Below the pieces are notes generated by a model that was given only the letters and a program-made list of their open reading frames with translations, was not told where the DNA came from and did not search any database. A stretch of 64,000 nt of DNA from Parcubacteria group bacterium Greene0714_7. Lineage in GTDB: Bacteria > Patescibacteriota > Minisyncoccia > Phycocordibacterales > Phycocordibacteraceae. Positions within the stretch are counted from its first letter, which is position 1. Each line of letters starts with the position of its first letter. The DNA lies in the NCBI GenBank assembly GCA_007378985.1, contig VMHB01000002.1:158273-222272 (forward strand). Reading direction: 5' to 3'. A program made the position numbers and the translations under genes. Positions 4,568 to 5,269 of this stretch are shown here, one piece after another.

Positions 4568-5269
4568 ATGGAACATATTGATGCGGAGCTGGAGATTTTA
4601 AATAGTTCACTCAATAATCCTGTTGTTCTTGAGGAATATAAAAAGCGATACGATGATTACAAGCCTCACTTACTTCCGCGCATTCTTGGTCATCTGCTTG
4701 TGTGGTGCGGGAATACTGTCTATGGCAAGAAGCCTTCGTATCTCAAATTTCGTGCCGTTGAAGTGATTGCGCGCGTTCCATATCATTCATGGGACTCTGC
4801 CTCATTTACCTTCCTCACAATGTTTTATCAGAATGAAGAGAAGGCTATGCATCTTGCACAGCTCTCACAGTTTGCACGACTCGCATCGGATAATGAAACA
4901 ATGCACGTGGTAGTAATTTCAGCACTTGCCAAGGTTGAACAGAAGGCCAATGTGGTTGTGCACACGGTTATACCAATGCTCTTCGCCTTCTTCTATTTTT
5001 GGGCTGCGTATTGGTTATACGTTTTTAATCCACGAGATGCATTTGAGCTCAACTATCTTTTTGAGTCTCATGCATTTGAACAGTATTCCCGTTTCCTCGA
5101 AGAAAATGAAGAGGAGCTCAAGAAAAAAACTATGTCGAGTAAATATCTTGAATGGTACGGACGCGCTCCTCTGAATCAATACGAGTTTTTCAAATCAGTT
5201 AGAAATGATGAGATCATACACCGCAATAAATCAATTGAGGAAATAGAGAAACTAGGGAATAGGGGCTAG
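4568..5269 (+). CDS. alternative oxidase (AOX/PTOX)-like di-iron carboxylate protein
   Basis: Four spaced Glu/His motifs resembling AOX LET-A, NERMHL, LEEEA-HSY and RADE-HHR boxes: AVEVIARVP, NEEKAMHL, ESHAFEQYSRFLEE, RNDEIIHRN; ATG at 4568 in frame with listed ORF. Confidence 0.55.
   Translation: MEHIDAELEILNSSLNNPVVLEEYKKRYDDYKPHLLPRILGHLLVWCGNTVYGKKPSYLKFRAVEVIARVPYHSWDSASFTFLTMFYQNEEKAMHLAQLSQFARLASDNETMHVVVISALAKVEQKANVVVHTVIPMLFAFFYFWAAYWLYVFNPRDAFELNYLFESHAFEQYSRFLEENEEELKKKTMSSKYLEWYGRAPLNQYEFFKSVRNDEIIHRNKSIEEIEKLGNRG

What the first reader, a model, noticed from the sequence alone, without database searches (positions are those of the whole stretch)
4568..5269. Alternative-oxidase (AOX/PTOX)-like di-iron protein in an organism with no visible respiratory chain
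The 234-aa ORF has four Glu/His-containing helices with spacing and local sequence close to the AOX iron-binding boxes. These are AVEVIARVP (LET-A-VPG box), NEEKAMHL (NERMHL), ESHAFEQYSRFLEE (LEEEAIHSYTEFL, with E and H positions swapped) and RNDEIIHRN (RADEAHHRD). AOX/PTOX are quinol oxidases, but CPR bacteria generally lack quinones and electron transport. This could be an O2-detoxifying oxidase, a member of a different ferritin-like family, or a horizontally acquired gene.
Basis: partly seen in the sequence, partly recalled or inferred. Interest (0 to 1): 0.55.

Follow-up and report, generated by a model that had tools for sequence, protein, structure and literature searches.

The report
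Alternative-oxidase-type di-iron oxidase in Paceibacteria
The gene encodes a real, well-conserved member of the alternative oxidase / plastid terminal oxidase family, a single-protein, heme-free enzyme that reduces oxygen to water, and it belongs to a large clade in ultra-small CPR bacteria whose oxygen-reductase surveys (those I could read) did not screen for this enzyme class.

Summary

All six iron ligands, the catalytic Tyr and two second-shell residues are invariant from this protein through to TAO. 'NEEKAMHL' is not an iron box, because its His varies among homologs. The true ExxH box is DNETMHV, 14 residues downstream.

The protein is closer to PTOX (22-26% identity) than to mitochondrial AOX (15-17%). 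It belongs to a distinct clade found in at least 218 species-level Patescibacteria genomes, with partly conserved synteny and dN/dS of 0.06-0.10. Two archaeal contigs also carry it.

No quinone or respiratory gene lies in the 64-kb window or is enriched near the gene. Quinone-dependent DsbB occurs in the same lineages and, in one contig, in an apparent AOX–thioredoxin–DsbB–MsrA operon, but this adjacency is not statistically enriched.

Most likely function: quinol:O2 oxidase working on scavenged quinone. It is a new member of a known kind, of moderate interest.

The parts
4568..5269 (+). AOX/PTOX-family di-iron oxidase gene (233 aa plus stop), apparently monocistronic
4670..4723 (+). Predicted helix aa 35-52 (LLPRILGHLLVWCGNTVY). 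Its position corresponds to TAO helix alpha1, a putative membrane-interface helix.
   Evidence: Helix H35-52 in the model. It aligns with the TAO N-terminal helix region. The membrane role is inferred.
4754..4780 (+). Iron box 1, AVEVIARVP. E65 corresponds to TAO E123.
   Evidence: E65, A68 and P71 are invariant across all clades, including TAO.
4832..4855 (+). It is not an iron-binding box.
   Evidence: H95 is variable in homologs. Only E90, A93 and L96 are conserved, and only within the CPR clade. The motif has no ExxH spacing.
4889..4909 (+). True iron box 2, DNETMHV. N109, E110 and H113 correspond to TAO N161, E162 and H165.
   Evidence: Invariant in A1 and A2. hhalign places it on TAO AENERMHL.
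4949..5026 (+). Hydrophobic helix aa 128-153 (…VIPMLFAFFYFWAAYWLYVF), equivalent to TAO helix alpha4 (membrane-embedded face). It ends in the conserved NPR motif.
   Evidence: It is the only segment with Kyte-Doolittle score above 1.6. Helix H129-153 in the model. It aligns to TAO IIITQAIMYLFLLVAYVISPRF.
5063..5086 (+). Iron box 3, ESHAFEQY. E166 corresponds to TAO E213 and Y173 to the catalytic Tyr, TAO Y220. The motif is the PTOX-type 'ESH' form.
   Evidence: E166 and Y173 are invariant across all clades. H168 is shared with all sequences except TAO.
5201..5227 (+). Iron box 4, RNDEIIHRN. D214, E215 and H218 correspond to TAO D265, E266 and H269.
   Evidence: Invariant across all clades.
4024..4485 (-). 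Divergent upstream neighbour, a DUF5673 membrane protein. It is the most frequent neighbour of the oxidase gene in related genomes.
   Evidence: Pfam DUF5673. The same cluster lies within 2 genes of the oxidase in 15 of 75 loci.
5273..6223 (-). Convergent downstream neighbour, an EamA-family transporter. Its stop codon lies 3 bp from the oxidase stop. It is context only.
   Evidence: It sits at +1 in 8 related loci.

Best explanation
The gene encodes a functional, membrane-associated di-iron carboxylate oxidase of the AOX/PTOX superfamily. It reduces O2 to water at a Glu4-His2 di-iron centre with a nearby catalytic tyrosine.

Shown here: family membership, conservation of all catalytic residues, an AOX-like fold, purifying selection, and long-term retention in a Paceibacteria clade.

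Inferred: the electron donor is a membrane quinol, as in every characterised member of the family. These organisms are not known to make quinones, and the window has no such genes. The quinone would therefore be scavenged from a host or the environment together with membrane lipids.

The enzyme needs no heme or copper and is a single 233-aa polypeptide. It would be the cheapest possible terminal oxidase for a reduced genome. It would re-oxidise quinol produced by whatever quinone-reducing enzymes the cell has, keep the quinone pool from auto-oxidising, and lower local O2 without conserving energy.

The one quinone-reducing partner I could actually find in these lineages is DsbB, paired with a membrane-anchored CPHC thioredoxin. 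A plausible chain is therefore secreted-protein thiols -> Trx-like protein -> DsbB -> quinone -> this oxidase -> O2. That chain is speculative.

Rough sub-probabilities: an O2-reducing di-iron oxidase 0.85, a quinol as donor 0.6, coupling to DsbB 0.25-0.3.
For: Family and catalytic core:
- Pfam AOX is the only family hit and is above its gathering score.
- E65, N109, E110, H113, E166, Y173, D214, E215 and H218 are invariant across CPR, Thermoleophilia/Bacteroidota-type, algal PTOX-like and TAO sequences (TAO sequence verified; hhalign register).
- All ligands lie on the four long helices of a confident model (pLDDT 85).

Fold:
- Foldseek puts TAO in the top 14 hits at probability 1.0.
- Cyanophage PTOX models match at E = 2e-6 and 22-23% identity.

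The gene is functional and old:
- dN/dS is 0.06-0.10.
- At least 218 species-level genomes carry it, and the best 80 are nearly all labelled as Patescibacteria or unclassified bacteria.
- Neighbours recur (DUF5673, RuvX, PilM/N, flavokinase).
- It is absent from viral contigs.

Membrane association:
- One strongly hydrophobic helix aligns to TAO alpha4.
- Some homologs add a C-terminal TM helix.

Quinone link in relatives:
- The Paludibacteraceae homolog lies next to the Na+-NQR (NADH:quinone) operon.

Quinone-dependent enzyme in the same lineages:
- DsbB has 389 clusters, many named Paceibacterota or Kaiserbacteria.
- Its CxxC...R and second Cys pair are invariant.
- Oxidase and DsbB occur in one Kaiserbacteria MAG, locus tags COU15_01690 and COU15_02575.
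- L091 has oxidase–Trx(CPHC)–DsbB–MsrA co-directional with gaps of 15, 7 and 56 bp.
- L090 has the oxidase four genes from Trx–DsbB.

Literature:
- CPR genomes lack quinone biosynthesis yet some carry quinol oxidases (PMC8407418).
- The surveys of CPR O2 reductases I read screened only heme-copper and bd oxidases (PMC7507113).
Against: - No quinone-biosynthesis gene, quinone reductase or any respiratory gene lies in the 64-kb window, and none is enriched within 10 kb of the gene in 75 related loci. The donor is therefore unproven.
- The DsbB adjacency is not enriched. None of 80 genome loci around the oxidase has DsbB. None of 80 metagenome loci around DsbB has the oxidase. Two adjacent cases among about 160 loci is about what chance gives.
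- A profile of the CPR clade does not reach TAO by sequence alone.
- Identity to characterised enzymes is only 15-26%, so substrate specificity could differ.
- I could not measure metal-site distances, because model coordinates are not exposed.
- Whether this genome itself has DsbB or any quinone is unknown.
Confidence: 0.6

Rival explanations
1. It is an O2-scavenging di-iron oxidase that takes electrons from something other than a quinol. Candidates are a reduced flavin, a soluble hydroquinone or catechol, or a protein partner. It would serve purely to detoxify O2 in a fermentative cell.
For: No quinone genes lie in the window or near the gene. The clade is divergent, at 15-26% identity to characterised enzymes. 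It has a clade-specific conserved N-terminal 58 aa. A flavokinase gene lies within 2 genes in 12 of 75 loci, and the window is rich in riboflavin genes.
Against: Every characterised PF01786 member is a quinol oxidase (established knowledge of AOX and PTOX). The hydrophobic alpha4-like helix and the residues around the active site are conserved with quinol oxidases. A relative sits beside a quinone reductase operon. The flavokinase linkage looks like inherited synteny among related genomes rather than an operon, because the genes are on opposite strands.
Confidence: 0.15
2. It is not an oxidase but a membrane di-iron hydroxylase or desaturase, like COQ7 or the Mg-protoporphyrin cyclase. It would modify a scavenged lipid or quinone precursor.
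Confidence: 0.08
3. It is a recently transferred passenger gene, from Proteobacteria or cyanobacteria as suggested for the single CPR hit in PMC9540462, with little or no role in this organism.
For: One paper interpreted a CPR AOX hit as a transfer from Proteobacteria. Gene GC is 41.5% against a gene mean of 44.6% with sd 1.7. Members of the clade also occur on archaeal contigs, so transfer does happen.
Against: The clade is large and almost exclusive to Patescibacteria. The neighbourhood is partly conserved across genomes at 58-98% identity. dN/dS is 0.06-0.10. In the top 150 representative hits the clade's nearest relatives are Thermoleophilia/Bacteroidota-type and PTOX-like sequences; no sequence with the mitochondrial/proteobacterial AOX box form (LETVAGVPG) was seen among the 30 representatives I retrieved from that list. 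It is not on viral contigs.
Confidence: 0.03
4. It belongs to another ferritin-like family (MiaE tRNA hydroxylase, rubrerythrin, bacterioferritin or Dps) and only mimics the AOX motifs.
Confidence: 0.01

Closest known systems
Plastid / plastoquinol terminal oxidase (PTOX, IMMUTANS type; plastids, cyanobacteria, cyanophages)
   Same: Same Pfam family. Same six iron ligands, catalytic Tyr and N/D second shell. Both have the 'E-S-H-A-x-x-x-Y' form of box 3 and the 'ARVPY' form of box 1. These are the closest sequences of known type: 23-26% identity to algal PTOX-like proteins, including Cyanophora, and 22-23% to cyanophage PTOX models at Foldseek E = 2e-6.
   Different: The window protein lacks the PTOX-specific insertion between the third and fourth ligand helices (alignment columns 300-355). 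It has a 6-residue longer link between boxes 1 and 2. It has its own invariant N-terminal 58 residues. It occurs in non-photosynthetic organisms with no plastoquinone and no visible electron transport. tblastn finds no phage PTOX.
Mitochondrial / proteobacterial alternative oxidase (AOX; structure of Trypanosoma brucei TAO, PDB 3VV9)
   Different: Only 15-17% identity. A profile of the CPR clade does not detect TAO by sequence. Box 1 lacks the 'VAGVPG' form and box 3 lacks 'LEEEA'. The window protein is shorter and has no mitochondrial targeting or long C-terminal tail.
Uncharacterised bacterial AOX-like clade (Thermoleophilia, Paludibacteraceae and others; motif QDNEQWHL … FEDHAEHEY)
   Same: Similar length (about 220-250 aa). 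It is the sister group in a rough NJ tree. It has 20-26% identity and the same catalytic residues. NCBI names it 'alternative oxidase'.
   Different: It is found in organisms with quinone-based respiration. One example lies next to the nqrA-F operon. Its conserved motifs around the ligands are distinct.
COQ7 / CLK-1 demethoxyubiquinone hydroxylase
   Different: There is no sequence-family match, far weaker structural similarity, and different chemistry (hydroxylation rather than four-electron O2 reduction).

Membership tests
AOX/PTOX superfamily (Pfam PF01786) | Score above the curated family threshold | tested here: met
   39.3 bits against a cutoff of 22.7, E = 7e-10, covering aa 59-220 and profile positions 54-209 of 216. 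It is the only family hit even at E ≤ 10. All of the top 120 homologs carry PF01786.
AOX/PTOX superfamily (Pfam PF01786) | Six di-iron ligands arranged as E, ExxH, E, ExxH on four helices | tested here: met
   E65; E110-x-x-H113; E166; E215-x-x-H218. All are invariant in A1 and in A2, which includes TAO. Each lies in a long helix of the model.
AOX/PTOX superfamily (Pfam PF01786) | Catalytic tyrosine 7 residues after the third-helix Glu (TAO Y220), plus second-shell Asn and Asp (TAO N161, D265) | tested here: met
   Y173, N109 and D214 are invariant across all 22 sequences of A2. The register is confirmed by hhalign against the verified TAO sequence.
AOX/PTOX superfamily (Pfam PF01786) | AOX fold: six long helices, four of which form the di-iron bundle | tested here: met
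AOX/PTOX superfamily (Pfam PF01786) | Di-iron site geometry (ligand side chains converging within bonding distance) | not testable with these tools
   Model coordinates are not exposed to the scripting environment. Only helix placement of the ligands could be checked.
AOX/PTOX superfamily (Pfam PF01786) | Monotopic (interfacial) membrane binding through hydrophobic or amphipathic helices | tested here: inconclusive
   One hydrophobic helix (aa 128-153, KD up to 1.9) aligns with TAO alpha4. Some homologs add a C-terminal TM helix. Topology was not tested experimentally.
AOX/PTOX superfamily (Pfam PF01786) | Quinol:O2 oxidoreductase activity that is cyanide-insensitive and sensitive to SHAM or gallates | not testable with these tools
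   This needs enzyme assays.
AOX/PTOX superfamily (Pfam PF01786) | A quinone pool and a quinone-reducing enzyme in the same organism | tested here: inconclusive
   None in the 64-kb window or near the gene in 75 loci. DsbB, which is quinone-dependent by established knowledge, is present in the same lineages and in at least one, probably four, oxidase-bearing genomes or contigs. Whole genomes could not be read.
PTOX sensu stricto | PTOX-specific insertion before the fourth ligand helix (the 'exon 8' region of IMMUTANS, from my own knowledge) and a photosynthetic or plastoquinone context | tested here: not met
   The insertion in the algal PTOX-like sequences (columns 300-355 of A2) is absent here. 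The organism is a non-photosynthetic Paceibacterota bacterium.
MiaE / COQ7 / rubrerythrin / ferritin-Dps (other ferritin-like families) | A better sequence or structure match than to AOX | tested here: not met

The most novel reading that the evidence does not exclude
A vertically inherited, heme-free, single-polypeptide terminal oxidase is a standard part of a large Paceibacteria clade and of some ultra-small archaea. Together with scavenged host quinone it would close a minimal oxidative-protein-folding chain: membrane CPHC thioredoxin -> DsbB -> quinone -> oxidase -> O2. Oxygen use in these 'respiration-less' organisms would then serve disulfide formation and O2 removal rather than energy conservation. 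This would revise the view that Patescibacteria ancestrally lack O2 reductases, a conclusion that (in the survey I read) rests on screens for heme-copper and bd oxidases only.
Probability: 0.22. Interest if true: 0.75.

Novelty: new member of a known kind. Interest (0 to 1): 0.5.

Why it matters
CPR/Patescibacteria are described as fermentative organisms that almost entirely lack O2 reductases. That conclusion rests on searches for heme-copper and cytochrome bd oxidases (PMC7507113). Recent papers on CPR adaptation to oxygen do not mention the AOX class.

Here the third class of terminal oxidase turns out to be conserved in at least 218 species-level genomes. It is under strong purifying selection and has intact catalytic residues. 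That gives a concrete, clonable candidate for how some Parcubacteria deal with oxygen.

It also sharpens a testable question: where does the quinone come from, and what reduces it? The co-occurrence with DsbB suggests one answer.

The result is not a new kind of enzyme. PGAP already names some of these proteins 'alternative oxidase'.

Tried and rejected
- NCBIfam gave no hit.
- phmmer of the single protein against PDB sequences gave only noise, mostly GLIC channel TM helices.
- hmmsearch of the CPR-clade profile against PDB sequences gave only noise; TAO was not reached.
- tblastn against 50,697 phage genomes found no cyanophage PTOX match.
- A scan of IMG/VR viral contigs found none.
- The afdb50 fold library was unavailable.
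- The promoter/terminator scan around the gene gave nothing above shuffled expectation.
- Neighbour clustering over 75 loci looked for a respiratory or quinone partner. The recurrent neighbours are DUF5673, a PduO-type adenosyltransferase, flavokinase, EamA, RuvX and PilM/N. None is informative.
- A regex screen of about 1,560 neighbouring ORFs for NDH-2-like and UbiA-like proteins found only thioredoxin-reductase-like proteins.
- The DsbB-linkage hypothesis was tested both ways and was not enriched: 0 of 80 and 0 of 80. I therefore keep it as a lead only.
- HxlR, Trx and MsrA neighbours of L090 and L091 do not recur elsewhere.
- I considered the longer 264-aa ORF from TTG 4475 and rejected it on homolog N-termini and overlap with the divergent gene.
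- Literature searches for AOX or PTOX with CPR terms found only one passing mention of a single CPR hit.

Full report
**Observation**

The + strand ORF from ATG 4568 to the stop ending at 5269 encodes 233 aa. A longer reading from TTG 4475 overlaps the start of the divergent gene at 4485. It is not supported by the N-termini of 31 homologs, which all begin at the 'ME…' position.

An alignment of the protein with 31 CPR homologs (A1) shows that three of them hold invariant ligand residues:
- AVEVIARVP holds E65.
- ESHAFEQY holds E166 and Y173.
- RNDEIIHRN holds E215 and H218.

The fourth, NEEKAMHL, does not. Its His (H95) is replaced by S, R, K, Q, E or D in homologs, and its Glu-His spacing is not ExxH. 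The true second box is the invariant D108-N-E110-T-M-H113-V (nt 4889-4909), 14 residues downstream.

**Family**

Pfam AOX (PF01786) is the only family matched, at 39.3 bits against a curated cutoff of 22.7. NCBIfam has nothing.

I verified the Trypanosoma brucei alternative oxidase (TAO) sequence against PDB 3VV9. A profile alignment puts E110/H113 on TAO E162/H165, E166 on E213, Y173 on the catalytic Y220, and E215/H218 on E266/H269.

A second alignment (A2) combined this protein with divergent CPR-type sequences, a second bacterial clade, algal PTOX-like sequences and TAO. The only invariant columns are E65, A68, P71, N109, E110, H113, E166, Y173, D214, E215 and H218. These are the six iron ligands, the catalytic tyrosine and the two second-shell residues known from TAO.

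**Structure**

An AlphaFold2 model built on A1 is confident (mean pLDDT 85, pTM 0.86). It has six long helices, and every ligand sits on one of the four bundle helices.
- Foldseek against the PDB returns TAO chains as the top 14 hits (probability 1.0, TM 0.54-0.60, 14-17% identity). COQ7 is next, at probability 0.33.

**Which branch of the family**

The protein is nearer to PTOX than to mitochondrial AOX.
- Predicted structures of cyanophage plastoquinol terminal oxidases match at E = 2e-6 and 22-23% identity.
- Identity is 23-26% to PTOX-like proteins and 15% to TAO. The PTOX-like group includes Cyanophora paradoxa and MMETSP algae.
- Box 1 ('ARVPY') and box 3 ('E-S-H-A…Y') have the PTOX form.
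- It lacks the insertion that PTOX-like sequences carry before the fourth ligand helix, and it has its own invariant N-terminal 58 residues.

An exhaustive HMMER search of 1.84 billion representatives found only 476 clusters at E ≤ 1e-3. They fall into three tiers:
- a tight top group at E ≤ 1e-30, the CPR-type clade;
- a second bacterial clade with motif QDNEQWHL…FEDHAEHEY, which includes Thermoleophilia and Paludibacteraceae;
- PTOX-like sequences.

A profile of the CPR clade does not reach TAO by sequence. A rough NJ tree places the CPR-type clade as sister to the second bacterial clade, with PTOX-like sequences outside. That tree has no support values.

**Organism and distribution**

Window 3693-12383 is 100% identical to a Logan contig. 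The region is 96-98% identical and collinear with JAGOSG010000003.1, a Candidatus Paceibacterota MAG.

The protein has 1160 homolog clusters at 90% identity. The top 120 are 62-98% identical, and those that carry names are labelled Pacebacteria, Yonath-, Kaiser- or Nomurabacteria, or Minisyncoccia. Some are already called 'alternative oxidase' by NCBI.

A scan of one genome per GTDB species found 218 genomes encoding a relative. The best 80 are nearly all labelled as Patescibacteria or unclassified bacteria. This is a lower bound, because the scan was pattern-based.

Four observations argue for a functional, long-resident gene rather than a recent transfer:
- dN/dS against orthologs is 0.06-0.10.
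- Gene GC is 41.5% against a gene mean of 44.6% with sd 1.7.
- Neighbours recur across loci: DUF5673 at -1, PduO-type adenosyltransferase, flavokinase, EamA, RuvX and PilM/N.
- No viral contig carries it.

**Context and the donor problem**

The gene is transcribed divergently from a DUF5673 gene and convergently with an EamA transporter gene. It looks monocistronic.

Pfam annotation of the whole 64-kb window shows only housekeeping functions:
- Mur ligase, RuvA, RuvX and type IV pilus assembly;
- riboflavin synthase, lumazine synthase and flavokinase;
- UppS;
- ThyA, DHFR and SHMT;
- several tRNA synthetases;
- RecA and FtsK;
- Fur and ZIP.

There is no quinone biosynthesis, NADH dehydrogenase or cytochrome. 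No respiratory or quinone gene is enriched within 10 kb of the gene in 75 related loci. A motif screen for NDH-2-like or UbiA-like neighbours found none.

In a Paludibacteraceae relative the homolog lies beside the nqrA-F NADH:quinone oxidoreductase operon. That fits a quinol-linked function in the wider family.

**A lead: DsbB**

While looking up a more distant CPR homolog, I found the oxidase four genes upstream of a DsbB gene, which is preceded by a membrane-anchored thioredoxin-fold protein with a CPHC motif (L090).

A second contig (L091) carries oxidase, Trx(CPHC), DsbB and MsrA on one strand, with gaps of 15, 7 and 56 bp.

DsbB is widespread in Paceibacteria, with 389 clusters. Its CxxC-x3-R and second cysteine pair are invariant. 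By established knowledge of E. coli DsbB, that arginine is tied to quinone reduction, and DsbB passes electrons to quinone and then to terminal oxidases.

Two further cases of co-occurrence:
- One Kaiserbacteria MAG encodes both proteins, COU15_01690 and COU15_02575.
- A 316,070-bp JGI contig carrying DsbB has the same length and source as the longest contig of an oxidase 85% identical to the window's. I infer, but could not confirm, that they are the same contig.

The adjacency is not statistically enriched. None of 80 genome loci around the oxidase contains DsbB. None of 80 metagenome loci around DsbB contains the oxidase (697 kb in total, median 6 kb). I treat DsbB as evidence that quinone-dependent enzymes exist in these lineages, and as a candidate partner. 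I do not treat it as a demonstrated operon.

**Mechanism**

Shown: an intact AOX/PTOX-type catalytic core and fold, selection, and long-term retention.

Inferred: four-electron reduction of O2 to water with a membrane quinol as donor. The quinone would be scavenged, because CPR genomes lack quinone biosynthesis (PMC8407418; PMC8672522). The role would be a non-energy-conserving, heme-free sink for quinol (possibly from DsbB) and a means of O2 removal.

Rivals: a non-quinol donor, a hydroxylase-type activity, a passenger gene, or another ferritin-like family. The evidence for and against each is given in the report sections.

**Literature and novelty**

Full-text searches found only one passing mention of a single CPR AOX hit, interpreted as a transfer from Proteobacteria (PMC9540462). 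No paper linked PTOX or AOX with Patescibacteria.

The study that concluded O2 reductases are ancestrally absent screened only heme-copper and bd oxidases (PMC7507113). Recent work on oxic adaptation of CPR lists cyo operons and other oxygen-using enzymes but not this family.

The enzyme is thus a new member of a known kind. All defining sequence and fold features are met, and some database entries already name it. It belongs to a clade for which I found no description in the searchable literature, in a biological setting that makes its electron donor an open and testable question.

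Noticed in passing
L085 8001-8696 and L089 1899-2585 (related loci): Members of the same oxidase clade (47% identical to the window protein) lie on archaeal contigs. L085 sits next to rpoH, split rpoB'' and rpoB', rpoA' and rpoA''. L089 sits next to ribosomal L11, S27ae, a GatE-like protein and a beta-CASP (aCPSF-like) protein. In an NJ tree they group with some 'Minisyncoccia'-labelled sequences, which suggests CPR-archaea transfer. I know of no report of AOX-family oxidases in archaea.
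   Followed up: partly
L091 5658-8616; L090 8001-10854: L091 has an apparent operon of oxidase, membrane-anchored CPHC thioredoxin, DsbB and MsrA. L090 has a looser oxidase–HxlR–ZIP–Trx–DsbB cluster. The Trx(CPHC)–DsbB pair also occurs without the oxidase (L092, L093). CPR DsbB keeps the CxxC…R motif even though these genomes reportedly lack quinone synthesis.
   Followed up: yes
window 41789-45277 (+): The isoleucyl-tRNA synthetase-like protein (1162 aa) carries a histidine-phosphatase (His_Phos_1) domain at aa 502-665, inserted inside the class I catalytic domain.
   Followed up: no
window 17696-18397 (+): A free-standing LAGLIDADG-type ORF (233 aa) lies between the L19 gene and tRNA-Leu/tRNA-His. 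Its 3' end overlaps tRNA-Leu (18362-18446).
   Followed up: no
window 3936-3979: A perfect 20-bp inverted repeat with a 4-nt loop (AATTAAAAACACACAGCCAC ATAA GTGGCTGTGTGTTTTTAATT) lies between tRNA-Arg (3693-3765) and the 3' end of the DUF5673 gene. It is probably a bidirectional terminator.
   Followed up: no
window 6389-6736, 12527-13219, 18919-19960, 32480-33220: The window has an unusual concentration of flavin-related genes for a reduced genome: a stand-alone flavokinase, riboflavin synthase, lumazine synthase and two CofE-like (F420-0:gamma-glutamyl ligase family) genes. An aldo/keto reductase lies at 6751-7707.
   Followed up: no
window 21048-23315 (-) and 61620-64000 (+): Two large proteins are poorly annotated. 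One is a 755-aa protein with only a weak GCS2 (glutamate-cysteine ligase 2) domain. The other is an ORF of at least 793 aa with an N-terminal TM segment that runs off the window end.
   Followed up: no
L082 / L083 6001-6660: In a Paludibacteraceae genome, a distant AOX-like homolog (named 'alternative oxidase' by NCBI, with no precomputed Pfam hit) lies convergent to the complete nqrA-F operon and downstream of Fur and a rubredoxin-like peptide.
   Followed up: partly
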